Part shown: positions 4,508-58,884 of the stretch, piece after piece | Position numbering within the stretch: the stretch's first letter is position 1 | How the letters are laid out: every line of letters begins with the position of its first letter | Source: Isurus oxyrinchus | Taxonomy: Eukaryota | Length of the DNA: 64,000 nucleotides | Reading direction: 5' to 3' | NCBI GenBank assembly: GCA_026770705.1 | Contig: JANJGN010000031.1 | Coordinates: 806,001-870,000, forward strand | Translations under genes and position numbers: made by a program | Notes under the pieces: model-generated | Database searches by the model: none | What the model was told of the DNA's origin: nothing | The model's input: the letters and a program-made list of their open reading frames with translations, nothing else

Positions 4508-4627
4508 CTGTGGACTGCGGACCTCCCACAAAACTGATGAACGGACATGAGAACTTCATAAGCACAGTTTACACATCCCAGAACCAGTACAGTTGTGAAG
4601 AGCCATACTATAAACTTGAAGGAAACG
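4508..4627 (+). CDS. C1S: C1s-like complement serine protease, exon encoding first half of CCP2 (sushi) domain
   Basis: ttcacAG|..|GTgagg, phase 1/1, 120 nt. Translates (x)VDCGPPTKLMNGHENFISTVYTSQNQYSCEEPYYKLEGN. VDCG..P and CEEPYY match the C1s CCP2 pattern. Not in the ORF track. Confidence 0.88.
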
Positions 4628-4984
4628 GTGAGGCCCATTATGCCTGCGTCAGTTGACAAGTAGCCATTCAGCCTAATCCCACTTTCCAATTCTTGGTCCA
4701 TAGCCGTGTATGTTGTGGCACTTCAAATATTTATCTAAATATTAAATGTTATGAGAGTGTTTGCCTCTATTACACTTCTAGGCAGTGAGTTCCAGATCTC
4801 CACCACATTCTGGGTAAATAAAGTTCTCCTTCAGGTCCCTCTAAACCTCCAATCACCTACCCTAAATCTATGCCTCCTGGTTATGGTTCTTTAACCAAGG
4901 GGATATAGGGGCTTCCTATCCTCCCTATCTAGACCCTTCATAAATTCATACAATTCAGTTAGGTCTCCCCTACTTCTCCTCTCA

Positions 4985-7049
4985 CAGAATCACAGTGCAG
5001 AAGAAGCCCTTCGACCCATCGAGTCTGCACCTACACATGAGAAACACCTGACCTACCTACCTAATCCCATTTACCAGCACTTGGCCCATAGCCTTGATTG
5101 TTATGACGTGCCAAATGCTCATGCAGGTACTTTTTAAAGGATGTGAGGCAACTGGCATCCACCACCCTCCCAGGCAGTGCATTCCAGACCATCACCACCC
5201 TCTGGGTAATAAGTTTTTCCTCACATCTCCCCTAAACCTCCTGACCCTCACCTTGAACTTATGTCCCCTTGGGAATGACCCTTCAACTAAGGGGAACAAC
5301 TGCTCCTATCCACCCTGTCCATGCCCCTCATAATCTTGTACACCTCGATCAGGTCGCTGCTCAGTCTTCCCTGCTCCAACGAAAACAACCCAAGTCTATC
5401 CAACCTCTCTTCATAACTTAAATGTTTCATCCCAGGCAACATCCTGGTGAATCTCCTCTGCACCCCCTCCAGTGCAATCGCATCCTTCCTACTATGTGGT
5501 GACCAGAACTGCACACAGTACTCCAGCTGTGGCCTCACCAAGGTTCTATACAACTCCAACATGACTTCCCTGCTTTTGTAATCTATGCCTCGATTGATAA
5601 AGGCAAGTATTCCATATGCCTTTTTCACCACCCACTAACATGCCCCTCTGCCTTCAGAGATCTATGGACACACACACCAAGGTCCCTTTGTTCCTCAGAA
5701 CTTCCTAGTGTCATGCCATTCATTGAATACTTCCTTGTCAAATTACTCCTTCCAAAGTGTATCATCTCACAATTTTCAGGGTTAAATTCCATCTGCCACT
5801 TATCTGCCCATTTGACCATCCCGTCTATATCTTCCTGTAGCCCAAGACACTCAACCTCACTGTTAACCACCCGGCCAATCTTTGTGTCATCCGCAAACTT
5901 ACTAATCCTACCCCCAATATAGTCATCTATGTCCTTTATATAAATGACTAATAATAGGGGACCGAGCACAGATCCCTGTGGTACGCCACTGGACACTGGC
6001 TTCCAGTCACTAAAGCATCCTTCTGTCATCACCCTCTGTCTCCTACAACTAAGTCAATTTTGAATCCACCTTATCAAATTATTCTGTATCCCATGTGCAT
6101 TTGCCTTCTTTATAAGTCTCCCATGTGGGACCTTGTCAAAGGCTTTGCTGAAATCCATATAAACTACATCAACTGCACTAACCTCATCTACACACCTGGT
6201 CACTTCCTCAAAAGATTCACTCAAATTTGTTAGGCAAGACCTCCCTCTGACAAAGCCGTGCTGACTATCCCTGATCAAACTTTGCCTCTCCAAGTGGAGA
6301 TAGATTCTCTCCTTCAGAACTTTCTCCAATAGTTTCCCTACCACTGACGTGAGACTCACTGGCCTGTAATTCCCTGGCTTATCTCTACAACCCTTCTTAA
6401 ATAGCGGAACCACATTAGCTGTTCTCCAGTCCTCTGGCACCTCCCCTGTGGCCAGAGAGGAATTAAAAATTCAGGCCAGAGCCCCTGCGATCTCCTCCCT
6501 TGCCTCCCTCAGCCATCTGGGACACAAACCATCTGTCCTGGAGATTTGTCCACTTTTAAGCCTGCCAACACCTCCAATACCTTGTCACTTTCTATATCAA
6601 TTTGCTTAAGAACCTCGCAGTCTCTCTCCCCGAGCTCAATACCTTCATCCTCATTCTCTTGGGTGAAGACGGACGTGAAGTATTCATTCAACAATCTAGC
6701 GATGTCCTCTGGCTCCACCCATAAATTGCCCCCTTGGTCCCTTATGGGCCCTACTCTTTCCCTGGTTATCCTCTTACCACTGATATACTTATAGAATATC
6801 TTGGGATTTTCCCTACTTTTACCAGCCAGAGCTTTCTCATATCCCCTCTTTGCTCTCCTAATTGCTTTCTTGAGCTCCATACTGCACTGCCTGTACTCCA
6901 CTAATGCCTCAGCTGATCTGCTTCCCTTGTACCAACTAAAAGCCTTTCTTTTCATTCTCATTGTAACCTGAATATCTCTGGTCATCCATGGTTCTCTGGG
7001 CTTGTTACTCTTTCCTATCACCCTAGAAGGAATGTGTTGAGCCTGTATC
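4985..7049 (-). mobile_element. Young CR1 LINE, 5'-truncated ORF2 (RT) with 3' UTR/tail, inserted in an older CR1 fragment
   Basis: ORFs show [34 protein letters not shown] and KFADDTK. The tail TCACAGAATCACAG (reverse complement of CTGTGATTCTGTGA) is at ~4985. Confidence 0.93.
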
Positions 7050-7529
7050 CTCCCCATTTCTTCTGTTCCAAAGGAAACAACCCCAGCCTATCCAATCTTT
7101 GCTCATGAATTAAATTCTCCAGTCCAGGCAGCTTGCTCCTAAATCGCCTCTGTACCCTGTCTAGTACAATCACAAGGTGACCAGGACTGCACATGATACT
7201 CCAGCTATGGCTTGACACATTTAAAACAGTTCCAGTATAACCTCCCAGCTCTTATATTCTACACCTCAGTTAATAAAGGTAAGAGTAAATACTGGCTTCT
7301 TGACCAACTTACCTACCAATCCAGTCACTTTCCAGGTACCCCACATGTTCTCTGCAGTTTTCCTTTACAGCTATTTATCTAGTTCCTTTTGAATTTTGCT
7401 GAATATAATTTTAGCACCAGTGATGGTGTATAGCTGGGTGTTTCCCTCTTTCTATTACGCACTTCTCCCATCTGACTGAAGTGAGGGAGATAGAGAATCG
7501 AATGGGAGACATGACAAGTCACATCTCGG

Positions 7530-7690
7530 CTATTTTATACTTGCGGCCATTATTCCTCCTTCACCCTTCATGATCTCAGGTTATCCCAAATCACTTTAAA
7601 GCTGATGGTGCACTTTTTTTAGAAATTGCAGTCACCGTTATAATGTAGGGGGAAGCATACAGCAAGATCCCACAAACATTGGGTGCTGGT
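7530..7690 (-). mobile_element. Deu-type SINE 3' tail fragment
   Basis: cccaaatcacttta...tgcagtcaccgttataatgtagg...cagcaagatcccacaaaca resembles the tails at 49450-49620(+), 51310-51480(-) and 52020-52130(-). Confidence 0.55.
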
Positions 7691-7879
7691 GGGGATAAAA
7701 GTCAGATGGTTTGGAGGGTTGCTACTGAGGCTGGAAGTTAATGATTAGGATCTCAAAAGCAGGAGCAGAGGTGATTGGAATGGTAATTGCAGTAAGTAGT
7801 TACAGTCTGTTTAATGTAGGCAACCCCTAGAGTTTACTTCCCCATGTGCATTGCCTTATTTGCAAATAGAGATCAAGGA

Positions 7880-8160
7880 TGCCTCTTTTTAAACAGTGCA
7901 CTGCAGCAAACAGTTTACAGGGACATTTTATCAAGAGCTTCTACAACTACAGCAAGCAGAGTCTATTTAAATAGTACACCGCAGAAAACAGTCTACAGTG
8001 TCTATTTTTTTAAAGCTTCTATGAACTGTGAACAGAGTTTAGTTAAGCAATGTGCCACAGCAGACAGTCTATAGATACTGTTTATAAAGTGTTGCAATTA
8101 ATCTCGTAAGCTTCTATTTAACCTGCACACCTCAGCAAACGATCTACAGTTTAAGAAAGA
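7880..8160. repeat. Degenerate tandem repeat, period ~75-80 nt, about 4 copies
   Basis: A motif like 'a.tgcac.gcagcaaacagtctacag' recurs at ~7892, 7971, 8048 and 8121. Confidence 0.5.
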
Positions 8161-8417
8161 GTCTCTATGAACCACAGCAAACAGAACATGACTGAAACTA
8201 TAGCAATGTCTCTGAAGAGAAGCAGAAGCCAGCAAAATTGCAGTGAGCAGAGAATTGTAACAAAATATAAATGATGTGTGGTAAAATCAAGATCAGCCAT
8301 GATTGACAGGGGGAATGACCCAATCAGCTCCATTCTAGCTGGAATAAAGTTATGACTCTACATAGCCCTCTCTCTCTGAATGCTATCTTTCTCCATTTAT
8401 ATTCTTTTCCCAACCAG

Positions 8418-8495
8418 CTGTCTTTAACTGCTCGGAAGAAGCTGAATGGATAGATGCCACGAGTGGGCAACTGACCCTGCCAAAGTGCAAACCAG
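8418..8495 (+). CDS. C1S: C1s-like protease, exon encoding second half of CCP2
   Basis: ttcccaaccAG|..|GTaaat, phase 1/1, 78 nt. Translates (A)VFNCSEEAEWIDATSGQLTLPKCKP(V), the C-x5-W...LPKC.P CCP end. In frame with both neighbouring exons. Confidence 0.9.
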
Positions 8496-9425
8496 GTAAA
8501 TATTTACAGGAGTGTAATGAGTAGAAAAGTAGCATAAAACCATTTATTGATAGCTCACAGGAGGCCATTTGCCCCATTGTGCCTCTGCTGGTTCTTTGAT
8601 AGAGCTATCCAATTAATACGACTTGCCCCTGCACTTTCCCCACAGCCCTGCAAATTATTGTCCCTTTTAAGTATTTATCCAATTTTCTTCTGAAAGCTAT
8701 TACTGAATCTGCTTTTCTTCCACTGCTATTTCAAGCAGTGCATTGCAGATCATAATAACTCAACGGTGTTAAAAAACTGTTTTCTCACGTCAGCACTAGT
8801 TCTTTTCCCAATATCTTGAACTGTCTCCTCTGGTTGCCAACCTTCCTGCAAGAGCAAACAGTTTCTCCTTAGTTATCAAAATCCCTCTTCATTGTGAATA
8901 CCTCTATTGAATCTCCCCTTAACCTTCTCTGCTATACGGAGAACAGTCCCAGCTTCTCCAGTCCCTCCACAATGACTGAAGTCTCACATGCCAGGTACCA
9001 TTCTGCTAAATCTCCTCTTACACTTGCTCCAAGGCTTTGACCTCCTGAAAGTGTGGTGACCAGAATGGCCCACCATGCTCCAGCTTTGGTCTAGACAATA
9101 ACTTCAAAACAGATTATCAGCCATTCAGGGCTGCTTTCTTTCCTGAGAACTCTGTGGGGATTTTCCCTTCCTGATCACTAGTTATTTGACTGAGGGAGGG
9201 GGCGCACAATGGGCAATGTTGCAGATGACCTTTTTGGTTCCATGTCAATTCAATGCCCGACGAGCAGGGGGTGTAGCAGGCATTGTTGATGTAACACCAC
9301 CCCTCTGTGTGCTGTCTCCCAAATGAAATAGAGAGCAGGGCTCGTGTGTCTGGTGTTCATCAGTTCTGTCACGTTTAAGATGATCCGAGAACTTTTCAAC
9401 TCCTTTGATTTTCATCTCTCCCCAG

Positions 9426-10216
9426 TCTGTGGGAATTGCCTACTCTCCTCCAAAACTGGTCGCATTTTTGGTGGCCAGCAAGCAAAACTGGGCTATTTCC
9501 CCTGGCAACTGCGGTTGGTCACCACCAGGGGTGAGATGGGTGGCGGAGCCTTGATCTCTGACAGATGGGTGCTGACCGCCGCTCACCTCTTTGACAACTC
9601 GCTCCAGGTGGAAATCCACGGTGGATTGGTTGATCTAAGAGCAAGAACACCAGAAGGTGAGCTCCCCATGGAATTGGCCATCATCCATCCCGGCTACAGG
9701 AAGCAAGTTGAGGGTGGACAGCCTAATTTCAATCATGACATTGCACTAATCAAGCTCCGAGAGAAGGTCAAACTGAGATCCAATTTGTCCCCCGTGTGCC
9801 TGCCTGGACCAGGAGGGGCATCTCTGCCGGACGATGGTACATTGGGTTATATTTCAGGGTGGGGTAGGATGCAAAAGAGGAGACTTGCCGTGATTCTGCA
9901 GTATGCTGAGGTACCCATCGTTAGCATAGATGAGTGTAAGAATTCCAACTACGATGGACCGAAGCCTGTTTTCACCCCTAACATGATCTGCGCTGGACTA
10001 CCAGGCATTGACTCCTGCCAAGGGGACAGTGGGGGTCCCTATGTGTTCGTAGACCTTCAGAACCCCAGTCGCCACATTGTCAGGGGGATCGTGTCATTTG
10101 GACCCCAGGAATGCGGCAATTATGGGGTGTACACCCATGTGGGGAACTATGTGGACTGGATTGAGACAACCATGAAGGAACACGAGGACAGAGAGACCGA
10201 CTCGGAAGTCATATAA
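9426..10216 (+). CDS. C1S: C1s-like protease, terminal exon: activation linker plus intronless trypsin-like serine protease domain
   Basis: Acceptor ctctccccAG|TC TGT GGG (VCG), activation site R|IFGG at 9461-9466. Triad: His TAAH 9584, Asp HDIAL 9737, Ser GDSGG encoded by AGT at 10028. Asp189 present, His-loop cysteines absent (GGGALI/TAAHL), single-exon domain: AGY-type C1r/C1s/MASP2/MASP3 class. GYISGWGR, VFTPNMICAG and NYVDWIETTM resemble C1s most. The ORF-track start at 9344 is intronic. Confidence 0.85.
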
Positions 10217-10245
10217 CTGTATTAATACATTGTGATATTGGTCAC

Positions 10246-10251
10246 AATAAA
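10246..10251 (+). terminator. Candidate polyadenylation signal AATAAA of the C1s-like gene (alternative ATTAAA at 10446-10451)
   Basis: AATAAA 30 nt after the TAA stop. Confidence 0.6.
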
Positions 10252-10489
10252 ATATAATCTGCCTGTTTACCATATTCTCTCCTCTTTCTCCCTCTGCCCT
10301 GTTCCCCTCATTCTGAGAAGAATTATGTTTTGTTTCTTTCCCCCTCTATCCCAAATGTAAACTTGATTTAAAAGAGCTATGAAATATTCCTGTCTCTCCA
10401 TTTAAAATAATGACAAGACATTGCTGTGTGTACATGCTTTTATTTATTAAAGGTTTAAATAGAGAAGGAAAGCTGAATTGTTAACGAAT

Positions 10490-10984
10490 ATGAGACAGAT
10501 AGAGAGGGAGGTGCGCAGAGGGAGAGAGAGAGAGACTCAGAAAAACAGAGAAAGACACAGAGAAGGAGAGACACAGAGACTGACATAGAGGCAGAGAGAC
10601 ATACACAAAAGGGAAGCCAAAAGAAAGAGATGCAGAGAGACAGATAGGGGGAGAGACACAGAGACGGAGCGTAAGAACTGCACTGAGAGACACACACAGG
10701 CTCACACACAGACACATTAAGAGAGAGGCAGACAGAGATTTGGAGAGAGCGATAGAGAAAGGCACAGAGTGAGACAGAGACACACACACAGACATGCAGA
10801 AAAATACTTGCATACAGAGAGAAAGAAATAGAGAAAAAGAGAGAGGCAGACATACATAGATAGATAAGAGAGACAGAAAGACACAGTGAGGGAGCGAGAG
10901 AGAGATGTTCAGGCACGGGGAGGTACATAGGGAGAGAGACAAAGAATGCAAGACACACAAACAGAGAGAGAGAGAGAGGGACAG
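10490..10984. repeat. Degenerate (GA/GACA)n low-complexity tract, continuing at 12527-12720 and 13770-13893 around inserted elements
   Basis: Purine-rich AG/AC dinucleotide arrays; source of the spurious Ser/Leu/Cys/Val-rich minus-strand ORFs. Confidence 0.9.
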
Positions 10985-12526
10985 GTGTTGGCGGCTTAAA
11001 AGTGAACAAATCTCCAGGTCCAGATGATTTGTGTCCCAGGCTGCTGAGGGAGAAGATCGTAGGGGCTCTGACCCAAATTTTTAATTCCTCTGTGGGCACA
11101 GGGGAGGTGCTAGAGGACTGAAGAACAGCTAATGTGGTTCCGCTATTTAAGAAGGGTTGTAGGGATAAGCCAGGGAACTACAGACCAGTGAGTCTCATGT
11201 CAGTGGTAGGGAACCTATTGGAGAAAATTCTAAAGGAGAGAATCTATCTCCACTTGGAGAGGCAAGGTTTGATCAGTGATAGTCAGCATGGCTTTGTCAG
11301 AGGGAGGTCATGCCTAACAAATTTGATTGAACTTTTTGAGGGGGTGACCTGGTGTGTAGATGAGGGTAGTGCAGTTGATGTTGTTTATATGGATTTCAGC
11401 AAAGCCTTTGACAAGGTCCCACATGGGAGACTTATAAGGAAGGCACATGGGATTCAGGGTAATTTGAAAAGATGGATTCAAAATTGGCTTAGTTGCAGGA
11501 GACAGAGGGTGATGACAGAAGGATGCTTTTGTGACTGGACCGGGATCTGTCCTGGGTCCTCTATTATTCATCATTTATATAAACGACATAGAGGACTATG
11601 AGGGGGTAGTATCAGAATGTTTCCAGATGACACAAAGATTGGCTGGGTGGTTAACAGTGAGGTTGAGTGTCTTGGGCTACAAGAACATAGAGACAAGATG
11701 GTTAAATGGGCTAATAACTGGCAGATGGAATTTAACCCTGAAAAGTGTGAGGTGATACACTTTGGAAGGAGTAATATGACAAGGAAGTCTTCAATGAATG
11801 GCAAGACACTAGGAAGTCCTGAGGAACAAAGTGACCTTGGCGTTTGTGTCCATAGATCTCTGGAGGTGGAAGGGCATGTTAGTGGGGTGGTGAAAAAGAC
11901 ATATGGGAAACTTGCCTTTATCAATCATGGCATAGGTTACAAAAGTAAGGAGGTTATGTTGGAGTTTGTGAGGCCACAGCTGGAGTACAGTGTGTAGTTC
12001 TGGTCGCCACATTATAGGAAGGATGTGATTGCACTGGAGGGGGTGCAGAGGAGATTCACCAGGATGTTGCCTGGGATGAAGCATTTGTTATGAAGAGAGG
12101 TTGGATAGACTTAGGTTGTTTTTGTTGGAGCAGAGAAGACTGAGGGGCGACCTGATTGAGGTGAACAAGGTTATGAGGGGTATGGACAGGGTGGATAGGG
12201 AGCAGCTGTTCCCCTTAGTTGAAGGGTCAGTCACAAGGGGGCATAAGTTCAAGGTGAGGGGCAGGAGGTTTAGGGGGACTGTGAGGCAAACCCTTTTTGC
12301 CCAGAGGGTGGTGATGGTCTGGAATGCGCTGCCTGGGAGGGTGGGGGAGGCGGGTTGCCTCACATCCTTTAAAAAGTACCTGGATGAGCACTTGGGACAT
12401 CATAACATTCAAGGCTATAGGCCAAGTGCTGGTAAATGGGATTAGGTAGGTAGGTCAGGTGTTTCTCACATGTCGGTACAGACTTAATGGGCCGAAGGGC
12501 CTCTTCTGCACTGTGTGATTCTGTGA
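10985..12526 (+). mobile_element. Young CR1 LINE, 5'-truncated RT and 3' tail (same subfamily as 4985-7049 and 61210-63378)
   Basis: PGNYRPVSL, YMDFSKAFDKVPH and FPDDTK motifs. Ends in CTGTGTGATTCTGTGA. Confidence 0.93.
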
Positions 12527-13893
12527 CATAGGGAAAGACACAGAGACACAGGCACAGAGAGAGATAGGGAAAGACACACACACAGACAGAAAGAGTGAGA
12601 TACACAAGAGATGGAGAGACAGTGAGTCAGAGAGAGGGAAAGAGGCAGACAGGGAGGCAGATGCAGAGAGAGAGGTGTGGAGAGAGAAAGAGAGATAGAG
12701 AGAGAGAAGCAAAGACACTGTGCCCCTCTGTCTATCTCCCTCTGGAAAGAGCCCCAAAAACGGGAATCTTTACTTCGAAGGGTTGGTGCAGGAAGTAGTG
12801 AGGCCCACCATCCCTGGATGCAGATCAGAGGCAGCCACAGGGGCAGCCAAGTACTGAGGTGTGCTAGTTAATAGGTCCATCTCAGTTCTCTGGGACTTCA
12901 TCCCAGTTGTTTTGTTAAATATTAGGCCCTCTAAGTGTCAGCCATCAAACCCTCTCACCCCCGTTACCCACTCCTCATGTTCATACATGCCAACTCATGA
13001 CCTGCCCACCCACCCCCATGGCCCCTCATAGCCCCCAAGCCAACATAGTGCCAACTCATGACTTCTCACCCATCATATGGTCCCTTATAGCCCTTGTGCC
13101 AACTTACTACCAACTTATGCTCCCCACCACCATTTGCCCTTACACCCTCCATGCCAACTCACCCAGTATCCACCTTTGGCAGGCTTCAGGAGTGATGCTG
13201 AGCTGAAATGAAATAAAGTTATAAATATCTATTACTTCACTATATTCATTACTCCACATAACCCCTTTGACTGTCAAACTGTAAATTTACAACACCCTAC
13301 TGTGATAATGATAGGTTGTGGAAAGCAGTCAAGCAGCAATAATGCTATAATGATAATACTTAGTGTTATGTTGACAAACTGCTGTTGAAGCTGCTAGCAG
13401 AGATTTTCTTTCAACTCACAGGCACAACAACTTTTTTTTTCAATTTTGAAAGGGAAAGCTTTAAAATAACTTGACAGCTCCATAGGCCTTACTTGCCCTT
13501 CACATAATGTCTACCCTAAAAATTCTTAACTCACACACTGGGGATAAAGCCCATGCTGTAGAGAAAATGGGGCCTACTTGAACTCAGCACTGAGTTGAAA
13601 TGTCCCTGCTGAGTTTAGCCTTTCCTCATGTAAGTCACGGCCTGCCCCCTTTCCCCAAATGGAAAAAAATAGAATCTGTCTGAAATGGGGGTGCCCCTTC
13701 CGGATCTGGGTTCCGCCTGCCAAATTTATAGGGCCCCAGAGTCTCTGTGACTCTTTGAAAATTTAGGCTCAAGAGACAGACACATAGACTGATAGAGAGG
13801 GAGGGAGAGACAGAGAGAGAGAAAGAGAGAGAGAGACAGAGAGAGAGAAAGAGAGAGAGACACACACACACACACACACAGTCAGAGAGACAG

Positions 13894-16096
13894 TGTTGCA
13901 ACCAGGATGGGAGAAGTGAGCAGTTTATCCAGCACTATTATTCCAAGGTCACACCATTAGTTTAAACATTTAATTCACTCACCAAAATTATTTACCTTTG
14001 CTGCAGTTAGACCCAGAATAAAAAAGACTTTAACCAAATTTCATTCAATAAATTCAGAATGATTGTTTTATTATAAAACAAAACTTCTTTTTAAAAACAA
14101 GTTGCAATAACTGGTTTACACACAATTGCAATCTGTATCTATGCCTCGTAAATTGCCCCAACACACGCACAAACACAAGGACAAACAGATAGGGTCTCTG
14201 CAGAGATTGGCGGTTGAAGAAAAAGTTTTATAAAAAGGATAAAGTTTGCCAGTTTTTGGCATTGTTGATCCAGTGCTCTGGTGGAAGAAGAGCCACACAG
14301 ACTCAAAATGTTAAATCTGTTTCGTTCTCCACAGATGCTGTCAGACCTGCTGAATTTTTTCAGCATTTTCTGTTTTTATTCCAATTGTTTTAAATGATAT
14401 TTCCAAGTGTTGCGGTGAATCAATACATCATCCAAGTAAATCACACGGTTAGAAACACTAGTTACAACTTGATTCATTAGTCTCTGGAAAGTAGCTGCAG
14501 CATTTTTTAGCCTGAATGGCATTACTTGGCATTGGTAAAGCCTATTTGGTGTGAGCAAAGCCACTATCCCCTTAGCAAGTGATGTCCAATAAGTCTATCT
14601 TAAGGAATGTGGCACTGCCAACCCTGTCAATACAGTCCTCTAGTTGAGGGGTTGAGTAGAAATCCATTTTTGTTACTGCATTAGCCTTTCTTTAATCTAA
14701 GCAGAATCTGGTTGACCCATCAGGTTTAAGCAATAATTCTACTGAAGAACTCCAGCTGCATTGACTATGTTGAATTAGATGATTTTCTAACATACTTGAA
14801 TTTCTGCTTTCACTTGGGCTTGTTTCTCTGGACTTAAATGATAAGGATATTGTTTTATCGGAGAAGGTTCCCCTACATCCACATCATGCATGGTAAAGGT
14901 TGTACGTCCTGGTTTATCTGTACAGATTTCTTTACATTCTGTAAATAAGCTAACCAAATTCTCTCATCCTGCCTCTAAGTATGAGAACATGGTGTATAAC
15001 TGTTCTAATATTTCAGTGTTAGCTAACCGAATAGTAGGTTAGTTTGTGAACTGTCTAAGTCTCCTTCTGCCCCACTCTCGCTGTTTCTCCTGTCCTCCAC
15101 TGTGCTTACAACCTGACATACCTGCCCCTTCTTATCCTCCTCCTTACGATGGTATTGTTTTATCATATTGATATAACATAGCTAATTATTTTAACTGCAA
15201 TCTAGGGTGTCTATCAAATAATTTACTTTACCAACCCATTTAATTTCCTTGTATGGATCACTGAACCGTGCTTTCAGAGGTTCCCCCTGTAAAGGCAAAA
15301 ACACGAACACTTCATCCCCTGGTTGTAATGTTCAGCTCACAGGTTGTTTATCTGTCCATTTCTTCAGCGTTGAGAAAGCTTAAGATGCTCTTGAGCCACA
15401 TTGCAGGCTCTCATCAGCCGTTCCTAGAACACAGACACATAATCTAACATAGAGGATTCGTTCCTCTGTCCTAAAAGCTTTTTTTTTTTGATTAATTTAT
15501 TTCACATCCATCAATTAATTCAAAAGATCGAAAACTGGTAGATTCATTCCGTGAATCTTGGATGGCAAATAAAAGAACATTCAGTCCTTTGCCCCAATCA
15601 TGGGGATATTCAAGGTCATATGCTTTAATCATTTTTCTGAGAGCTTTATGGTACCTCTCTAAAACTCCCTGTGTCTGTGGATGATATGCTCTGGGTTTTA
15701 TACTCAAATTACTCAATTTAATGTTTTGAAAAATTTTAGACATGATATAGGAAACTTGCTCTGAATGGATCTCTATAAATCATCCATATCAAGTAATAAA
15801 TTGGGTTAACTTCTCTGCCACTACTTTAGCTGTCGTTGTTCTTAAAGGGATGACCTCCTGAAATTGTGTTGTCATATCCATGATTGTAAGGGTCTATTGG
15901 TGTTCTGCTTTCATTTTTGGTAACGGTCTCACACAGTCTACTAACACCCTACTAAACAGCTCTTCAAAAACCGCTATGGGAATTAAGGGTGCCTGTTTTA
16001 TTGTAGATTGTGTTTTTCCCATCATCTGGTAGGTAAGGCACATTTTACAGAACTGCACCATGCCCTTGTTAAGACCTGGCCAGTAAAACCGTCAGT
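13894..16096 (-). mobile_element. Gypsy LTR retrotransposon (Gmr1-like order), 3' part: integrase, then RT, then LTR-like end
   Basis: ORF 15492..15743 AYHPQTQGVLERYH (integrase core). FYWPGL..C..C zinc finger at ~16030-16090. ORF 14376..14564 MPFRLKNAAATFQRLM..YLDD (RT). Candidate LTR edge TGTTGCA at 13894. Confidence 0.85.
14283..14378 (+). mobile_element. Short Penelope-derived repeat fragment with degenerate hammerhead-like core
   Basis: gaagaagagccacacagactcaaaatgttaa...ccacagatgctgtcagacctgctg, same family as 31397, 39536 and 60705. Confidence 0.55.
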
Positions 16097-16789
16097 AAAG
16101 GGCATGTGAGGAGACAGGTGGCTACGTCAGAATGAGATGGAAGCCAAGATTTTCCATGCCCACTGACTTTGGGTGTGTTCGGTGGCGTGAGTTGACAAAA
16201 TGATGAAAAGCCCAAAAAACACTTTCATGACATCGTGAAACTAGGTTGCAATCATCTGCTCTGTCCATGGATGGTGCACCGCGTTCCCTGCCACTTGAAT
16301 GTTGGGAACCTCACTGTAATAAATCAACATATCATTATAAAGCCAGCCTGCCGGATTCATTCCCCCCGCTGGATCATCTGCCCATGTCAGCGGGAAAACA
16401 CGTCGGTGCAGAACACGTCCTGACAACTGTGACGGGCAGAAGTCGAGACTTACTGGCAGGGCCTTGCTCGCATCCTGGACATCCGAGGAGTAGAAAATGC
16501 TGGAGCTGGACAGCAACGGGGTCCTAGAGGAACGACCATGGCATGCTGGGTGATTCTCATGGACATGGCTCTGCTGCAAAGCAGCTTATGTAAGTTGGAA
16601 AGTCACCATTGATGGTCACAACAGATTGACCAAGAGAGGAAGAGGTCGGGGGGGATGTGGTTGGGAGGGGGTAATGAAGGTGTCTTTAGGATGAGGTTGG
16701 GAGGGAGGAGGGGCTATGGGAGAGCAGGTGGTAACGGGGACATGGCAACTGAGGAGGTAGGTTTAAGGGGGGGTGGAAGGTGTAAGGGA

Positions 16790-17260
16790 AGCTGGAATAA
16801 GTGGATTGTCTTATGAGGAAAGGTTGGGCAGACCTGGCTTGTTTCCACTGGAGTTTAGAAAAATGAGGTGTGATTTGATTGAAGTATACAAGATCCTGAA
16901 CGGTCTTGACAAGGTGGGTGTGGAAAGGATGTTTCCTCTTCTGGGTGAGTCCAGAACTATGCGGCACTGCCTTAAAATTAGGGGTCACCCTTTTAGGACA
17001 GAGAAGAGGAGAAATTTTTTCTCTCAGAGAGTTGTACAGCTTTGGAACTCTCTGCCTCAGAACGTGGTGGAGGCGGCGTCATTGAATATTTTTAAGGCAG
17101 AGGTAGATAGATTCTCATTAGGCAAGGGAATCAAAGGTTATTGGGGCTCGATAGGAATGTGGAAATCGAAACGCAAGATCAGCCATGATCATATTGAGTG
17201 GCAGAGCAGGCTCAAGGGGCTGAAAGGTCTACCCCTGTTCCTATTTCTTATGTTCTTATG
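16790..17260 (+). mobile_element. CR1 LINE 3' fragment
   Basis: ORF 16773..17261 GLSYEERL...RRNFFSQRVVQLWNSL followed by a TTCTTATG-type tail. Confidence 0.9.
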
Positions 17261-17269
17261 AGTTCAGGG

Positions 17270-17720
17270 GAGAAGGATTGCAGAGAGGGGAGGGAGACCA
17301 GGGTGGGGGGGGGGGGGTGGTTGTAAGGAAAGAGTTTGGAGGGGGAGGGAGTCCGGTTGTTGGGGGGGGGGGGGGGGAAGGAAGGAGTGCAGAAAGGGGA
17401 GGGAGTAAGGGTGGAGGAAGAAGTAAAGGTGTCTGAAGGGCTCAGGAAGAGGGAAGGAGTAAGGCTAGAGGAAGAAGTGTGGCTGGAGGAATAAGTAAGG
17501 CTGGAGGAAGCAGTCGAGAGCAGAGAAGGACTAAGGTGTGGAAGAAGTAAGGATGTCAGAGAGAGTCAGGAAAGGGGAGGGACTAAGCGTGGGTGTGGAG
17601 TCTGTGGGGTGGAAGGGCTAAGGGAGGGGAAGGGGTTCCGGCGAGAGAAAGTGTTCCAGGATGGGAAGGGGTTCTGGGGAGGAAAGGGATGTCCAGGTGA
17701 ATGTGCAAGGGAGTGGTCTG
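17270..17720 (+). repeat. G-rich / polypurine tract with long G runs (G-quadruplex-prone)
   Basis: Runs of >12 G at ~17305 and ~17362 and repeated GGAGGAAG/AGTAAGG units. Confidence 0.8.
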
Positions 17721-17899
17721 ATGGGAAGGCCAAATCTAGAAGAGGCTTGTCATCCCCAGCAGTCCTCTGAGTGACAGGGAGCTTGCATGAACCTGCCCGC
17801 TGCTGCTGCGGACATGTGTCCATGCGATGACCACCACATTGTGAACCCCAGCCTGCTGTAGATCTAAGTTCCCCCAAGGTGTGTGTTCCTGCTCTGGTT

Positions 17900-19298
17900 C
17901 AGGGTGTGGGTAAGTGCTGCGATGGGTCTTCCAGGCTTCTTATTCCCAGCTCTTCAATGGAGGAGGTGTCCTCTTTGCTGTAGGTGGGGATGTGAATGGA
18001 GCTGAGGGACTGGCTGGCTGAGGGTGTCGGTCGCTTGGCAGAGCTCCCTGTGAAACAAATTAGAGATAATTAGTGCTTGACAGAAGTCAAAATCGGGAGA
18101 GAGAGCACTCACTTTTGGGTTGAGGGAGAGATGATGTGGTGCAGGATCCTTAAGAGGGCGTCCACTTTTAACCTCACTTTCACTGCAGGTTTCCTCACCA
18201 GTCAGCACAATGGCATGGCAAGCTTCTTAAAGTGAGTGAGGGGCCTAATGTGGACCACTCCGCCCCTGGTCTGGGATCTCTCCCTGCTGATGAGAACAGG
18301 TTCCTCCTGCATGAAAACAGATAGAGAATGTATGAGCAGGGCATGGCACTGTTTGGAATGTTTGTGTGGTGAACATGGACAGGATGAGGATGCGAGCTGC
18401 AGAGGGTATGAGGCTGATGGAGATGTGAGGGTGTGTGTGAGAGGTCGTGATGTTGTTCTTTGAGGTGTGGGATCCCTGTGGATGTGTGACGGGTTTTGAG
18501 TGTGTGAGTTGAGAGTGATGAGAAGATGAATTGGCAGAGCAGAGAAGACCACTCATCCTGCAGCGGCACAGAGTTTTCTGCCCTCTTTTGCAGGGCAATG
18601 GCGCTGACCACCATTGCCACCACCTCCCAAGCTGGATTAGTGAGGTTGCTGCCCATTGCACAGCCAGAGAGAGGCAGAGGAAACATAGAAAAATGGGCTT
18701 GAAGTTTTAGCTCGGTGGGCACGATTGGCGGGTCCAGGATTGGCCGGGAAATGGACCTGCAACGCGATCTGCATGTGAAAATGATTTCTCGCTGGCTGGC
18801 CATTAGTTGGACAGCCAGCGTGAAATGCATACTGAAAAGTTCAGTGTTACCGGGGTTGAGGTGGGAAGCGGGCGGGTGATAATGTCAATGTGGGTGCAAG
18901 CGAGCACTGAGGGAAACTTCCGTGAATGCAGAGAGCTGCCTCAGGGAGCTGCAGACCTGAAAACCATCAATAAAATTACAAAAAGCCTGAAAAAGATGTC
19001 CAAACATTAGAATTAGGCACCTGAAAATATAGAGGATAAAACTACTGGCCACAGGATTTTATTTTGAATCTATTTCATAACAGAAACCTCATCCCACTCT
19101 TGGATGAGGTTTCATGAAAAATGTGAAGGCCACCTGGCTGATTCTCTCACCCGCCAACTGTAAGGTTGGGCAGATCAAGAAAAAATCAGAGTCAATTGCT
19201 TGGGTTTAATAGGCAACACGCACCCGCCGACATCTTGTGCGATTTCACGTCTGATCAGGTTGGGTGTGTGCCCACCTGGTCAGTGTAAAATTCTACCC
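17900..19298 (-). mobile_element. Second Harbinger subfamily: Myb/SANT gene remnant with its own terminus
   Basis: AWEVVAMVVSAIALQKR and ERSQTRGG homologous to the Myb gene at 1429-3324. End GTAAAATTCTACCC at 19285-19298. Confidence 0.65.
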
Positions 19299-21339
19299 TA
19301 TATGCAGAAGCAGGAGTAGGTCACTTGGCCCTTTGAGCCTGCTCTGTCATTCAGTATGATCATGGCTGAGCATTTATCTGAATGCCATAGTCCTGCCCTT
19401 TCCCCATACCCCTTAATGCCTTCAGAGCCTGGAAATCTATCTATTTCCTTCATAAATATAATCAATGGCTCAGCCTCCACAGCCTCTGTGGTAGAGAATT
19501 CCACAGGTTTACCACCCTCTGAGTGAAGAAGTTTCTCCTCATCTCAGTCTTAAATGGCCCACCCTTTATCCTAAGGTTGCGACCGCTTATTGTAGACCCC
19601 AGCAGCCAGAGGGAACATCATCCCTGCATCCAGTCTTCCCAGACGTGTCAGAATTTTATACGTTTCAATGAGATTCCCTCTCATTCTTCTAAGCTCCAGT
19701 GAATACAGGCCTAGTCGGCCCAATCTCTCCTCTCACGACAATCCTGCCATCCCAGGAATCAGTCTGGTGAACCTTTGCTGCACTCCCTCTATGGCAAGTA
19801 TGTCCCTTCTTGGGTAAAGGGACCAAGGATGGAATTTTCCCAAATTTGCACTAAGTGCAGTAGCGGGTGGGTAAAACGACCCTGTGTTGCAAGAGGGTGA
19901 ATCATCTCCTCCATTCCGCCAGCTATGTCACTCATCTCATCACTCAAAACACGCACTCACAAACCCATCACACATCCACAGGGCCCACACTCACTGCCGG
20001 TTCTAGGGACATCACACTCACCGTCATTGCCCTCATCCCTTCCATGTACCCACTCAACACCCACACAGGCCAGGCATACTTATCATTTGGCCTGGCAGGG
20101 GGCCTGCTTACAATTTCTCCATCTCCATCCATGCAGGATAAGCTGGCATACAACAACAAAGAGAGGTCGCAGACCGGTGGCTGAATGCTGGAGATCAAGG
20201 TCCTCACTGGCTTTGAAAACAGAGCAATCCAATTGGCCAGCATGGATCTGGACTGGTCCTGTGCTGATGGTGAGCTTGGTGCTGCTCTACCAACTGAAGA
20301 TCCAGCAGCACAACATCCATCAGATAACCATGCTGTGAGTGATGTGTCCTCTTTCACAGGCCATTGCTATGCACTAATTATCTCCCCTTGCTTTTGCAGG
20401 CACATCTGCCAAACAGCTGACAGAGTCCATGACCCAGGGCCTCCAATCAAGCCCCGAAGGAACCTCTGAAGTGGAATCAGGAGGCAATCTCCCTGAAGTC
20501 CCATCACAGCGCTCACCATACCCTTCACCAGCGCAGAGACACAAGCCTCTGTGGGACCTAGCTTTAGAGTAGTCCAGGATCAGAATCTGGTGAGCACATC
20601 ACACTTTCTGATCCACATCAGATGGCAGCAGTGACTTCCCAGGTGCCCAGCACTCGGAGGACTGCTGGAGGCCAGAACATTGCTGATTTAGAGTCAGATG
20701 ATGGACCCCTGGACTCAGTCATGTCACAGTTGCTGGAGCTGCAAAGGCAAGGTCGGAAACATCAGGAAAGGATGTCTGCTGCACTCCTCAGATTGCAACG
20801 CACGGTGGAGGATTCCGTCTGCCTTCAGGCTGAAGTGATAGCGTTGGCATTGCAACACACTGAGGTGGACACTCGTAGGGTGGCAACCGCCATGGAGACC
20901 TTGGTCCAGGACTTCGCTCCTGTACTGCTGTGCAGATTGCACTCCATCACTGATGCCATAGTTGACCTCCAATAGTGTGTACACGAGAGGGGGGCTGGGC
21001 AGCTCGATCTCACTCTAGCTACCCCTTCTTCTCAAGGAATCAGCCTAGGGCCCCTGGGCATCCATAGGAAAGAGGATCCACAGGTGCACACTCCAGGCCC
21101 ATCCATCCAGGTGACTCCAGGAGTGTCCGATCCATCCGAACCCCCTCTTCCTGTGACCTCAGCAACTCTAGCTTCACAGGCCAAGGAATGCACCACTGCC
21201 ACACCGCAGAAGCAGGCCAGGGCCCTCCAAGGCTCTGCCCTCCAGAGGGAACCCACCAAAGTCATCATAGACAGGCAGCCAGCAAGCTGCCTCCACCTCT
21301 GCTCTGTGTCTGGAGCACTCCCTGGAAAGGATGTACCTA

Positions 21340-46376: not shown

Positions 46377-46425
46377 ATGCGGATTTCCTTTCTGTCCTGC
46401 GTGTTGTCGCTGATCCTGTTGGCGG
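46377..46425 (+). CDS. TCR beta V segment V-c, leader exon
   Basis: accATG; MRISFLSCVLSLILLA(G), hydrophobic signal peptide, phase-1 GTAAGT donor. Confidence 0.92.
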
Positions 46426-46711
46426 GTAAGTAAAGCGGGTGCCCGGAGCCACATCGAGGTCTTTGGAGTTTGGAGTAGGAATGTGTCAAATAGTCTGCAA
46501 AGCACGTATTCAATCAGAAGAGAGGCAGAGAGAGAGAAGGAATGGATGAATGAAACAGTGAGCGAGCGAACGAGATAATGATGGAAGGAGATAGTGAGCG
46601 AGTGACAGAAGAGTATCAGTCACAGAACAATTCACGATTAAGCAGGTTCATGTGTCATATTTCTGGGAAAGTTGAAGTCTCCAGTTTTAATTATCCCTGT
46701 TTTATTTCAAG

Positions 46712-47011
46712 GTCCTGGTGCGCCTCAGAAGATTGTGCAGCTCCAGCAGTTTGTGTCGGTGAGACAGGGCGAGTCGGTGACTATCCCGTGTACCCAGCAC
46801 GGGAATCATGGTTACATGTACTGGTATCGCCAGCTCCCGGGCCAGGGGCTCCGGAACCTCTTGTACGCAGTGCAGGAAGGGGATCCAACCAGGTCGGAAG
46901 GGATCACCGAGAGATTTTTCGCCAAGAAGACAACAAACGGCAACTTCGACCTGAAGATAGGGACAGTGGAGCGGGCCGACGCGGCTCGATATTTCTGTGC
47001 TTGCAGTGATG
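46712..47011 (+). CDS. TCR beta V segment V-c, V exon (apparently functional)
   Basis: tttcaAG acceptor. Open frame GPGAPQKIVQ..VTIPCTQHGNHGYMYWYRQLPGQGL..FDLKIGTVERADAARYFCACSD with Cys23, Trp41 and Cys104. Confidence 0.93.
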
Positions 47012-47050
47012 CACAGAGACATAGTCAGGCTGAACCATGTTACAAAAACC
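47012..47050 (+). other. 23-RSS of V-c: CACAGAG - 23 nt - ACAAAAACC
   Basis: CAC intact, spacer 47019-47041 = 23 nt, consensus nonamer. Confidence 0.95.
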
Positions 47051-49092: not shown

Positions 49093-49984
49093 ATGTTGCT
49101 TGAAGTTCATTGTCGATCATTGATGGTGTCACTAATTCCACGTAAGTCAAAGTAACAAACTTTTGGACATGTCTTTGTAGCGTTTTGCAGTAGAATGCCG
49201 ATTGTCGTCGAGCTGGTAGTAATTTTGCCTCTGGTGCTTGGGCCGAGACTTTCTCTTGAGATTTGAGCGCTGATCCAAGGTGACACTCCCGAGACCAATG
49301 CAGTGCCTGTTCGGCACTTTCAGATAAGGCATTAAACTGATCGGCCCTCTCAGGTGGTTGGAAGTGATCCCTGCGCCAAATTGGTGTGTACTGAGTGCTG
49401 AGTGTACTGAGCCAGCGTGTATCTCAGAACCGAAACCAAAAAAGGCCTTGATGCCCTGGTCATTTGTTCATTGCAGTTAACGGGAGATGGTTATGCTCAA
49501 ACTCGCCCCCACGCTTTCCCCATCACAACAATGACTAGATTTAAATGAACCCTTGGTGGTAAAAAGATTTGGGATTTCAGAGGTCGGGAACAATCTTTAT
49601 GAATGGATGCCATTACTTTCTCTATATATCGTATCTGTCCTAATCGATTGTTGACTAAAATGAGAATCCAATGGATTTTCTATACATTAGGAATACTCGC
49701 CTCTCACGTGGAGCAGTCGGTTTCTCTGCTATTGATTACAGCAGGGAAAGTCACCCACATTCTGTTGCACGCTGATGAATATCGGCTATCCCATATGTTC
49801 TGGTACAGACAACAACCAGTTCGTGCATTTGAAGCTCTTTTCTCTCTTGCTGGAGCAGGGATTGTCACCAGTTACACCTCCGAGTCGTTTGGGGCAGTCA
49901 GGACCAGAAAAACACTGTTTAGTCTGGAACTGAGAGACGCCGCTGCATCTCACACTGGTGTCTACACCTGTCCTTGTAGCTTCG
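49093..49984 (+). pseudogene. TCR beta V segment V-d (open frame but lacks Cys23; probable ORF-class pseudogene)
   Basis: Kozak gccaccATG leader 49093-49141 MLLEVHCRSLMVSLIP(R) with GTAAGT. Acceptor ttAG 49689-90. V exon ILASHVEQ..MFWYRQQP..FSLELRDAAASHTGVYTCPCSF. Cys23 present only in the +1 frame between 49747 and 49792. Confidence 0.85.
49255..49620 (+). mobile_element. Deu-type SINE (SacSINE1/AmnSINE1-like) in the V-d leader intron
   Basis: ctttcagataaggcattaaac..ccctctcaggtgg core and acaacaatgact...tttgggatttcagagg tail. Confidence 0.6.
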
Positions 49985-50023
49985 CACATCGTTCGAGAAG
50001 GCGGATCTGCTGTTAGAAAAAAC
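49985..50023 (+). other. Degenerate 23-RSS of V-d: CACATCG - 23 nt - AGAAAAAAC
   Basis: CAC at the coding end and an A-tract nonamer at 23-nt spacing. Confidence 0.75.
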
Positions 50024-52530: not shown

Positions 52531-52916
52531 CCGCATTCAGATGTCCTATGGTGCGCCAGCGGCGAAGGTGGTTGTTCCAAAGGGTTAAGCGGCGGCAAGG
52601 CAATGTTTCCAAACATGTAGCAGTAATGATTATATGTAGCAGTAATACATGTAGCAGTAATGAATACATGTAGCAGTAATACATGTAGCAGTAATGATTA
52701 CATGTAGCAGTAATACATGTAGCAGTAATGAATACATGTATTGTTACGAGCAGCTGAGAGACCCGGCCTGAAAGTCACAGTGACCTCCGTGTTCTTTATC
52801 GCGCTAATGCACGAGGAAGATTTCAAGAAAAGGCTTGAAGTCAGGAGGCCTATCTGAAGTCCTGCGGCCTGCAAACACTGAGCGTGGAGCAGACTGACAC
52901 GGTGACCTATTATTGT
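52531..52916 (+). pseudogene. TCR beta V pseudogene V-e (V-f family), no leader found, minisatellite inside CDR1
   Basis: Acceptor tctccgtcAG 52529-30. Pieces read KVVVPKG*AAARQCFQTCSSNDY / YMYCYEQ / GLKVTVTSVF..HEEDFKKRLEVRRP / LKSCGLQTLSVEQTDTVTYYC, aligning to V-f LNKGEPAELNCYQ..MLWYRQ..YEENFKNAVEIVR..KTCTLKIFKVKTADSAVYYC. Not in the ORF track. Confidence 0.85.
52613..52740. repeat. Higher-order minisatellite: alternating 19-nt ACATGTAGCAGTAATGA(T/A)T and 15-nt ACATGTAGCAGTAAT units
   Basis: Units 19,15,19,15,19,15,19 plus a final ACATGTA, read directly. Confidence 0.95.
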
Positions 52917-53139
52917 TGAACAGCAAATGCAGACCCAGTCCAAAAACTCACTGGGTCACCAAACGGAAAAATTCCAGGGACTCCCAGACCTAGCGTCGCA
53001 TAGCAACACGTACGAAATTCCTCCATCTGCTTTGTGTTGCCTCTGTTAATTTCCTCTCGAAAACAGACAGAAGCATATCGGGCTAGACGAGTTCGCCCAT
53101 ACCTGCGCTGTTTTCATTCAATGCATCAATAGAAGTTAA

Positions 53140-57860: not shown

Positions 57861-57925
57861 CAGGGCCCCTCCCGAAGTCACGTTGAAATTTCTCCATTCA
57901 CAGATTCAGGCCCCAAGCCTGTAGC

Positions 57926-57971
57926 ATGCACTTACCGTGTCTCGCCATTATCCTCTGCCCTCTGTTTCCAA
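57926..57971 (+). CDS. TCR beta V segment V-f, leader exon
   Basis: MHLPCLAIILCPLFP(S), phase-1 GTAAGT donor at 57972. Confidence 0.9.
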
Positions 57972-58346
57972 GTAAGTATTCTAGATTTATGACAATACTG
58001 GCGCTAACATTACGTCGACGTTGTCATTAACTAATAACCTTTATCGAACTAGATTTGGAAGATAAGCGTCATTTTTGAATGACTACTTAATCTGTGTAGA
58101 ACAGGATAATTGATCGAAAGTTTTTGGTGAATAATTTTAGCTCATAATTTTCTTTTAAATAAATAACCAATACACGGATTATCTTAACTTTATTAATGCT
58201 TATCGAACAGATTTTCCCGAATTACTGGCCATTTTTCTACATGATGTCACTTTCTATCTATCTAATGCATAAATATCCATCTATTTTGTATGTATTTTAT
58301 CTCTCTCTACCTATGTATCAGTTTGTCTATCCATCTTTTATTTAGC

Positions 58347-58347
58347 G

Positions 58348-58386
<39 letters not shown>
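58347..58386. repeat. (TCTA)n microsatellite in the V-f leader intron
   Basis: About 9-10 perfect TCTA units within a longer degenerate tract. Confidence 0.95.
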
Positions 58387-58543
58387 CATTCATCCTTCCA
58401 ATCATCCATTTTCCCTTTATCTGTTCATGATCTATCTATAATGTCTATCTACTATCTATTAATGTATCTGTCCATCTAGTTAAAATAGTCAACATGGTTG
58501 AATGATGCGCTGAATTTTGTAAATATTCTCCTTATTTCTCCAG

Positions 58544-58845
58544 GTAAAACGCTGGCAGAGATTATTTACCAATGGCCAAGTGGGTTGACGTTGAACAAAG
58601 GCGAGCCAGCGGAATTGAACTGCTACCAGAATGACACCAGCAAGAACGTTATGCTGTGGTACCGGCAGTACGCCGGGCAGGGTCCCAGCCTAATCGGTTA
58701 CTCTCGCACTGGAATTGCATCCACTTACGAAGAAAACTTTAAGAACGCGGTCGAGATTGTAAGGGCGGGGGACAAAACATGCACCTTGAAGATCTTCAAG
58801 GTTAAGACGGCAGACTCGGCGGTCTATTACTGTGCCAGCAGTGAG
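58544..58845 (+). CDS. TCR beta V segment V-f, V exon (apparently functional)
   Basis: tttctccAG acceptor. SKTLAEIIYQWP..ELNCYQNDTSKNVMLWYRQYAGQG..TLKIFKVKTADSAVYYCASSE; CASS is the TRBV signature. Confidence 0.95.
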
Positions 58846-58884
58846 CACACCGATGATAACTGCGCTGGTACCAGCACAAAAACC
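58846..58884 (+). other. 23-RSS of V-f: CACACCG - 23 nt - ACAAAAACC
   Basis: Spacer 58853-58875 = 23 nt, consensus nonamer. Confidence 0.93.

What the first reader, a model, noticed from the sequence alone, without database searches (positions are those of the whole stretch)
4508..58884. A complement C1s-like gene directly borders a TCR-beta V cluster
Seen: the C1s-like gene ends at 10216 and the first V leader starts at 38453, same strand, with only TEs between; no trypsinogen, MOXD2 or EPHB6 exons were recognised. Established: tetrapod TRB loci are flanked by MOXD2/trypsinogens and EPHB6, and human C1S/C1R (12p13) and TRB (7q34) are on different chromosomes. From memory, both regions share a chromosome in mouse and chicken. 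Inference: this could be an ancestral jawed-vertebrate arrangement joining an innate effector (classical-pathway protease) to a rearranging receptor locus, or a lineage-specific translocated V block.
Basis: partly seen in the sequence, partly recalled or inferred. Interest (0 to 1): 0.7.

Follow-up and report, generated by a model that had tools for sequence, protein, structure and literature searches.

The report
Shark C1s borders mirror-duplicated TCR-beta locus
In this shark a working complement C1s gene sits directly beside a complete, mirror-duplicated T-cell receptor beta locus that lacks the neighbours it has in land vertebrates, likely a shark-lineage rearrangement of an old chromosomal linkage rather than a functional partnership.

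Summary
Confirmed. An intact, spliced C1s gene ends 28 kb before the first V-beta leader, with only repeats between. The Vs are not orphons. A gap-free 944 kb stretch runs BLOC1S3, NKPD1-like, C1s, V array, D-J-C-beta, inverted Vs, C1s pseudogene, mirror-image D-J-C-beta; more Vs and galectins lie further on. No trypsinogen or Eph exon was found in it; no MOXD match lies on this scaffold. A 20 kb, 84%-identical inverted copy of the C1s tail lies beside the same V family. C1s and TRBC share a contig in white and zebra sharks, so misassembly is unlikely. A third D-J-C-beta (52% identical) lies on an unplaced scaffold, likely a second TRB locus. Best reading: C1s is a bystander. Chromosome-level C1S-TRB linkage is probably old (recalled), but direct adjacency is shown only in this genome and is likely a shark rearrangement. 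Ancestral adjacency is not excluded. I found no paper describing it (ten searches; two key papers not held) and no earlier scan finding.

The parts
4508..4627 (+). C1s exon, first half of CCP2 (seven earlier coding exons lie upstream of the window, C31:734,100-797,251)
   Evidence: spliced in RNA contigs
8418..8495 (+). C1s exon, second half of CCP2
9426..10216 (+). C1s last exon: activation site R-IFGG and intronless serine protease domain with His, Asp and Ser (AGT codon)
7749..27830 (+). Block (last two C1s exons plus 17.6 kb of repeat stack) that recurs inverted at C31:1,257,800-1,278,350, between the two D-J-C units; 20.5 kb aligned at 83.8%
10217..38452 (.). Repeat stack between C1s and the first V; no host gene recognised
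38453..38975 (+). V1, V-beta pseudogene (frameshifts, both cysteines lost, decayed signal); 92% DNA identity to the outermost V of the mirror unit at C31:1,601 kb
40772..41314 (+). V2, V-beta pseudogene (in-frame stop, frameshift), CACAGTG heptamer kept
46378..47050 (+). V3, open V-beta: leader, V exon and 23-spacer signal (CACAGAG-23-ACAAAAACC); 65% to a catshark protein named TCR-beta-like
49693..49990 (+). V4, degenerate V-beta (first cysteine lost, no canonical heptamer); family of a nurse shark TCR-beta cDNA
52740..52920 (+). V5, relic of a V 3' end
   Evidence: by eye
57927..58884 (+). V6, open V-beta: leader, V exon and 23-spacer signal (CACACCG-23-ACAAAAACC)

Best explanation
The window is the 5' edge of a complete shark TCR-beta locus whose outer neighbour is an intact, spliced C1s gene; the adjacency is likely a passive result of a shark-lineage rearrangement that brought C1s and one TRB copy together inside a human-19q13-type gene block. 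Shown: gene order, D-J-C linkage, mirror duplication, C1s pseudogene at the axis. Inferred: the open window Vs (23-spacer) would join the D-J-C 330 kb downstream by deletion, which spares C1s because it lies outside V1, and C1s would work as an ordinary secreted classical-pathway protease from its own promoter 110 kb upstream of V1. Inferred history: C1S and TRB shared a chromosome early (recalled for chicken, mouse and frog). A rearrangement then put them side by side, and a later inverted duplication (about 84% identity today) doubled D-J-C and copied the C1s tail.
For: No N in C31:406,001-1,350,000. D with 12/23 signals, nine J motifs, C exon and Lys-only transmembrane exon at 1,182-1,203 kb, and a mirror unit at 1,330-1,348 kb. 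The two units align at mostly 77-86%, the C1s tail copy at 83.8%. Flanks are BLOC1S3 (E 1e-61), a KAP-NTPase gene and galectins. White shark C1s (XP_041035058) and TRBC (XP_041035061, 96% to this C-beta) share a 30,049,857-base contig; zebra shark C1s and TRBC share a 26,235,440-base contig, while its other C1s paralogue is on a 15,889,016-base one. Tetrapod TRB flanks are MOXD2/DBHL and EPHB5/6 (PMC11754216, PMC12698447, passages). The genome's C1r, EMG1 and TPI1 are on other, unplaced scaffolds.
Against: A shared contig length shows linkage, not adjacency, and close accession numbers are only a hint. Those unplaced scaffolds (and one with a MOXD-like gene) could belong to the same chromosome as the window, which would make this an inversion within an ancestral chromosome and weaken 'moved into a new block'. 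In horn shark, C1s and TRBC are on different unplaced scaffolds (2.15 Mb vs 1.57 and 1.99 Mb). No ray or chimaera pair could be compared. The assignment of BLOC1S3/NKPD1 to human 19q13 is recalled, and the galectin is not diagnostic (best hits galectin-8/9).
Confidence: 0.62

Rival explanations
1. Direct C1s-TRB adjacency is the ancestral jawed-vertebrate state, kept in cartilaginous fish and replaced by MOXD2/trypsinogen/EPHB6 flanks in the bony lineage.
For: The window gene lies in a chondrichthyan C1s clade that includes chimaera and ray (UFBoot 100) and groups, weakly, with bony-vertebrate C1s (58-63) rather than with the other shark C1s paralogues. Contig-level linkage spans two shark orders. 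Human 12p13 and 7q34-35 genes share a chromosome in chicken, mouse and frog (recalled).
Against: No chimaera, ray or bony-fish adjacency was seen. C1r and EMG1, neighbours of C1S in tetrapods (recalled), are not next to this gene, so this C1s has left its own ancestral cluster. A second TRB unit exists elsewhere and may be the one with the classic flanks.
Confidence: 0.15
2. C1s and TRB were never close. A TRB copy landed beside C1s by an unrelated duplication or transposition in sharks, and the shared chromosome in other vertebrates is a coincidence.
For: TRB units are mobile. Squamate TRE is proposed to be a translocated TRB duplicate (PMC11754216, passages). This genome has a third D-J-C on an unplaced scaffold. 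A catshark TRB-like C only 30-33% identical lies on a 226 Mb contig, while catshark C1s is on a 24 Mb one.
Against: It needs two genes from the same ancestral chromosome (recalled) to meet by chance in a third block.
Confidence: 0.15
3. The junction is an assembly error across the repeat stack.
For: No long read spanning the stack was available. Short-read contigs could not bridge it. Window 27.8-38.0 kb has no collinear match in the paralogous block.
Against: No gap marks in 944 kb. An old, 84%-identical C1s tail also lies next to Vs of the V1 family (81% to V1). An independent white shark assembly has both genes on one contig.
Confidence: 0.04
4. The linkage is kept by selection because C1s shares regulatory elements with TRB or is co-expressed in T cells.
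For: Same strand, and linkage seen in more than one shark order.
Against: The V genes nearest C1s are dead, the C1s copy inside the locus is a two-exon pseudogene, 28 kb of repeats intervene, and tetrapods do without the adjacency.
Confidence: 0.04

Closest known systems
Tetrapod TRB locus (MOXD2/DBHL - V - PRSS - D-J-C - inverted V - EPHB6/EPHB5-like; PMC11754216, PMC12529555, PMC12698447)
   Same: 23-spacer Vs, 12/23 D with GGGACAGGGG core, FGxG Js, Lys-only transmembrane exon, inverted Vs 3' of C, and a serine protease gene in or beside the locus.
   Different: The protease is complement C1s, not trypsinogen. No Eph or trypsinogen exon in 944 kb, and no MOXD match on this scaffold. The D-J-C units face each other rather than lying in tandem. 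A C1s pseudogene sits at the axis and two C-beta relics lie within the V array.
Squamate TRE (TCR-epsilon), a translocated duplicate of TRB V-D-J-C (PMC11754216)
   Same: A TRB-type unit living outside the classic flanks, alongside another TRB unit in the same genome.
   Different: The shark unit is large (about 0.76 Mb of V-D-J-C), doubled, and its C is within the range of other shark TRBC (46-96%). Which shark locus is the 'classic' one is unresolved.
Complement C1s of jawed vertebrates, including Squalus 'complement protein 1S' and human C1S
   Same: CUB-EGF-CUB-CCP-CCP-protease order, intronless protease exon, intact triad; 92% to basking shark C1s-like.
   Different: Not in tandem with C1r here; sharks carry two further C1s-like lineages on another chromosome.

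Membership tests
Complement C1s | CUB-EGF-CUB-CCP-CCP-serine protease domain order | tested here: met
   All ten coding exons of the basking shark C1s-like protein found in order on one strand, C31:734,100-816,216.
Complement C1s | Intronless protease exon, AGY serine codon, no histidine-loop cysteines (recalled features of C1r/C1s/MASP2) | tested here: met
   Single exon 9426-10216, GAC AGT GGG, GGGALI and TAAHL.
Complement C1s | Groups with C1s, not C1r, MASP or haptoglobin | tested here: met
   PDB best hits: C1s 202 bits, MASP2 172, C1r 160. Tree of 56 domains: chondrichthyan C1s clade UFBoot 100; all-C1s clade 87, excluding C1r, MASP and haptoglobin-like rows.
Complement C1s | One-to-one orthology with human C1S (versus the other shark C1s-like lineages) | tested here: inconclusive
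   Grouping with bony-vertebrate C1s has UFBoot 58-63; a paralogue on C33 scores as well against human C1s (214 bits).
Complement C1s | Cleaves C4 and C2 within a C1 complex | not testable with these tools
   Needs an enzyme assay.
TRB locus | V segments with 23-spacer signals | tested here: met
   V3 and V6 in the window and most open Vs downstream.
TRB locus | D flanked by 12- and 23-spacer signals with the conserved TRBD1 sequence GGGACAGGGGGC (PMC11754216) | tested here: met
   GGGACAGGGGGGA in both units.
TRB locus | J cluster and C-beta with a lysine-only transmembrane segment | tested here: met
   Nine and seven FGxG motifs. C exon 58-67% to proteins named TCR-beta-like from other sharks. 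Transmembrane exon KLTYLILICKSIFY.
TRB locus | Tetrapod flanks MOXD2, trypsinogens and EPHB6 | tested here: not met
   No Eph or extra trypsin-like match in 406-1,350 kb or 1,585-1,785 kb. No Eph or Cu-monooxygenase match on C31. 1,350-1,585 kb was read only in two 10 kb samples. This is a synteny feature, not a functional one.
TRB locus | Rearranged V-D-J-C transcripts from this locus | not tested
   No thymus or spleen reads were laid on the V or C exons.

The most novel reading that the evidence does not exclude
Sharks carry two separate, anciently diverged TCR-beta loci, and the C1s-bounded one preserves the original jawed-vertebrate neighbourhood, in which the classical-pathway protease was the direct boundary of a rearranging T-cell receptor locus before the MOXD2/trypsinogen/EPHB6 flanks arose.
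Probability: 0.13. Interest if true: 0.75.

Novelty: new variant of a known kind. Interest (0 to 1): 0.5.

Why it matters
The MOXD2/EPHB6 frame of TRB is treated as a deeply conserved landmark and is used to find the locus in new genomes. This shark shows a full TRB locus without it, bounded by C1s, built as a mirror image, and accompanied by a second, 52%-diverged D-J-C unit. That gives comparative immunologists a map for annotating shark TRB (one RefSeq model of this C is named 'kappa light chain-like'). It also gives a marker pair, C1s-TRB, for testing how the 12p13, 7q34 and 19q13 immune regions were arranged in early jawed vertebrates. No new molecular mechanism is implied.

Tried and rejected
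Short-read contigs laid on window 19,501-39,400 could not test continuity: no piece spanned the stretch and repeats swamped it. No RNA holder was listed for window 29,001-39,000. A Pfam C1-set search of the genome was saturated by immunoglobulins and missed C-beta. PDB searches with V and C domains did not tell the chain type. The idea that C33 is the 12p13/7q34 chromosome was dropped: its Eph exon could not be assigned and is followed by an actin-related gene, which fits EPHB4/ACTL6B (that human order is recalled). EPHB6 was not located, and CLSTN3 was not found. A weak monooxygenase hit beside the third C-beta (E 0.013) was rejected as chance. A proposed mirror unit around the C-beta relic at 912 kb found homology only at the C exon and its flanks (66-73%), with no D or J relic. 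A C-beta tree was unresolved and its outgroup was mistranslated, so only its identity table is used. The first protease tree had one row in the wrong frame; it was rebuilt without it, leaving out four redundant proteins (Genypterus, Umbra, Solea, one unnamed). Ten literature searches listed nothing on a shark C1s-TRB link. Two recalled papers (Ohta 2019 on the primordial immune complex; Ott 2021 on shark Ig/TCR loci) were not held and may cover shark TRB linkage.
Full report
Setting. The window is G000:C31:806,001-870,000, near one end of a 25.2 Mb scaffold. The organism is a shark, probably lamniform: the protease is 92% identical to basking shark C1s-like and the C-beta is 96% identical to a white shark protein.

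The protease. The window holds the last three exons of a gene whose seven earlier coding exons lie at C31:734,100-797,251, in CUB-EGF-CUB-CCP-CCP-protease order. The protease domain is one exon with an R-I activation site and an intact His-Asp-Ser triad. RNA contigs from one sample join the three window exons at GT..AG without mismatch (the tool marks the runs as RNA by guess). Best solved-structure hits are human C1s (202 bits), then MASP2 (172) and C1r (160). In a 56-row protease tree it falls in a cartilaginous-fish C1s clade with chimaera and ray (UFBoot 100), inside an all-C1s clade (87) that excludes C1r, MASP and haptoglobin-like rows. Its tie to bony-vertebrate C1s over two other shark C1s-like lineages on C33 is weak (58-63), so strict orthology is open. 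The genome's C1r-like gene is on small unplaced scaffolds.

The gap and the Vs. From the stop at 10216 to the first leader at 38453 there are 28,236 bases, 74% multi-copy within the fetched DNA. Of 134 low-copy open frames, 129 were scanned and none matched a host gene family above cutoff. The window has six V-like segments: V3 and V6 are open with 23-spacer signals, while V1, V2, V4 and a relic are broken.

They belong to a full TRB locus. C31:406,001-1,350,000 contains no N; gaps elsewhere in this assembly are marked by 100 N. A tblastn inventory found 46 V-like segments there, 13 of them open. A D at about 1,182,590 (12-spacer, GGGACAGGGGGGA, 23-spacer) matches the conserved TRBD1 given in PMC11754216 (passages read). 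Nine J motifs surround it, followed by a C exon at 1,200,283 and a lysine-only transmembrane exon at about 1,202,650. A mirror-image D-J-C lies on the minus strand at 1,347,500-1,329,770; the two units align at mostly 77-86% and the C exons at 96%. Minus-strand Vs continue to 1,601 kb; I read 1,350-1,585 kb only in two 10 kb samples. Each unit has inverted Vs 3' of its C, as tetrapod TRB does. Two broken C-beta exons without D or J lie in the V array at 912 and 1,099 kb.

The C1s-V junction is old and probably real. Window 7,749-27,830 recurs inverted at C31:1,257,800-1,278,350, 20.5 kb aligned at 83.8%, as a two-exon C1s pseudogene between the two D-J-C units. It too is followed, in the same direction, by Vs of the V1 family (81% to V1). 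The match does not cover window 27.8-38.0 kb, and V1's closest relative is the outermost V of the mirror unit (92%), beyond which no C1s was found. The duplication history is therefore not a single clean event. In public annotations, white shark C1s-like and TRBC share a 30,049,857-base contig with accession numbers three apart. Zebra shark C1s-like and TRBC share a 26,235,440-base contig, while the other zebra shark C1s paralogue is on a 15,889,016-base contig. These are 2 of the 3 species where this C1s and an ordinary TRBC both had a contig length; in horn shark they are on different unplaced scaffolds. Brownbanded bamboo shark records came from differing assemblies, and catshark offered only a divergent TRB-like C on another contig. 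No ray or chimaera pair could be compared. Short-read contigs could not bridge the stack.

The flanks. Upstream of C1s are a KAP-NTPase (NKPD1-like) gene at about 636-658 kb and BLOC1S3 at 601 kb, neighbours on human 19q13.32 (recalled). Beyond the far end the first host-gene hits are tandem-type galectin exons at 1.87-1.90 Mb; only the longest low-copy frames were scanned, so small exons may be missed. No Eph or Cu-monooxygenase match lies on C31, and no trypsin-like match other than C1s and its pseudogene lies in 406-1,350 kb. Tetrapod TRB is flanked by MOXD2/DBHL and EPHB5/6 in skink and tuatara (PMC11754216, passages). In frog and axolotl it carries trypsin clusters, with Eph and DBH-like flanks in frog and TRPV in axolotl (PMC12529555, section 2.2 read). 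In newt it has TRPV6/EPHB5 on one side with MOXD2 24 Mb away (PMC12698447, passages). EMG1, TPI1, ERCC1, C1r and one MOXD-like gene are all on unplaced scaffolds here, so the chromosome-level picture is incomplete.

A second TRB. A third C-beta, 52% identical, lies on unplaced C2826 with a 12/23 D, six J motifs and a transmembrane exon. The satellite upstream of that D is about 94% identical to the one that ends a large V array on unplaced C163. These are likely two halves of a separate locus (inferred). Its flanks are satellites and its position is unknown.

How it works. Shown: gene order, signals and splicing. Inferred from the 12/23 rule: open window Vs would join D-J-C 1 by deletion, leaving C1s intact outside V1, and Vs facing the other way would join by inversion or use D-J-C 2. 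C1s would act as an ordinary secreted protease. Dead Vs at the border, the dead internal C1s copy and the repeat stack give no sign of shared control. Likely history (0.62): old chromosome-level linkage of C1S and TRB (recalled for chicken, mouse and frog; not tested), a shark rearrangement making them adjacent, then an inverted duplication. Rivals: ancestral adjacency 0.15, chance landing of a TRB copy 0.15, misassembly 0.04, selected co-regulation 0.04.

Prior description. Ten full-text searches listed nothing on a shark C1s-TRB link. Term look-ups in PMC10768021 found no C1s, C1r, synteny or TCR-beta mention (section 3.1 part 1 read). Passages of PMC13433984 and PMC10620051 added nothing. 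Two recalled papers that may treat shark TRB linkage were not held, and no supplements were read. Five look-ups of earlier scan findings showed no report of this arrangement.

Verdict. Real and apparently undescribed in the papers I could search: a new variant of a known locus, of interest to comparative immunogenomics, with no new mechanism. Interest 0.5.

Noticed in passing
G000:C2826:19,000-35,500 (L162-L164) and C163:291,000-1,003,000: A separate TRB unit (D, six J motifs, C-beta 52% identical to the C31 ones, transmembrane exon) and a large V array on another unplaced scaffold share a satellite at their facing ends; likely a second TRB locus broken at the satellite.
   Followed up: partly
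G000:C33:9.95-10.13 Mb (L063-L068, L150): Three tandem pairs of C1s-like proteases: one type with an intact triad, one lacking the catalytic His and Ser (TSASC, GDGGG). Both lineages occur across sharks and rays. They lie next to a BIR-NACHT-LRR (NAIP/NLRC4-like) gene. They could be a retained ohnologue of the C1r/C1s/MASP family (speculation).
   Followed up: partly
G000:C19:16,687,776-16,688,555 (L070): Intronless C1r/MASP-like protease exon with GDTGG in place of GDSGG, probably inactive, on a large chromosome.
   Followed up: no
G000:C31:912,019-912,331 and 1,099,296-1,099,574 (minus strand): Two broken C-beta exons (73% to the live ones) inside the V array, each about 3.5 kb downstream of a minus-strand V with no D or J between; the V at 1,103 kb is open with a 23-spacer signal.
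   Followed up: partly
G000:C31:1,182,154 (L004): One J motif lies upstream of the D in unit 1, which would allow only direct V-J joining or be unused.
   Followed up: no
P0001 (catshark, 226 Mb contig): A TRB-like protein whose V is 65% identical to window V3 but whose C is only 30-33% identical to this genome's C-betas; possibly yet another TRB-type locus in catshark, with no close match found here.
   Followed up: partly
G000:C31:844-1,072 kb: The window's V1-V2-V3-V4-V6 cassette recurs in tandem (V3 at 852, 901, 971, 1,059 kb; V6 at 864, 983, 1,072 kb); copies compared range from about 81% to 97% identical.
   Followed up: partly
P0233-P0237, P0399-P0411: Catshark, bamboo shark and sawshark have several annotated copies of this C1s, suggesting repeated duplication of the gene in other sharks.
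   Followed up: no
L119:5483-5794 (C31 about 591.5 kb) and L110:7694-8071 (about 503.7 kb): A histone-fold (CENP-T-like) exon and a weak PH-domain exon upstream of BLOC1S3; genes not identified.
   Followed up: no
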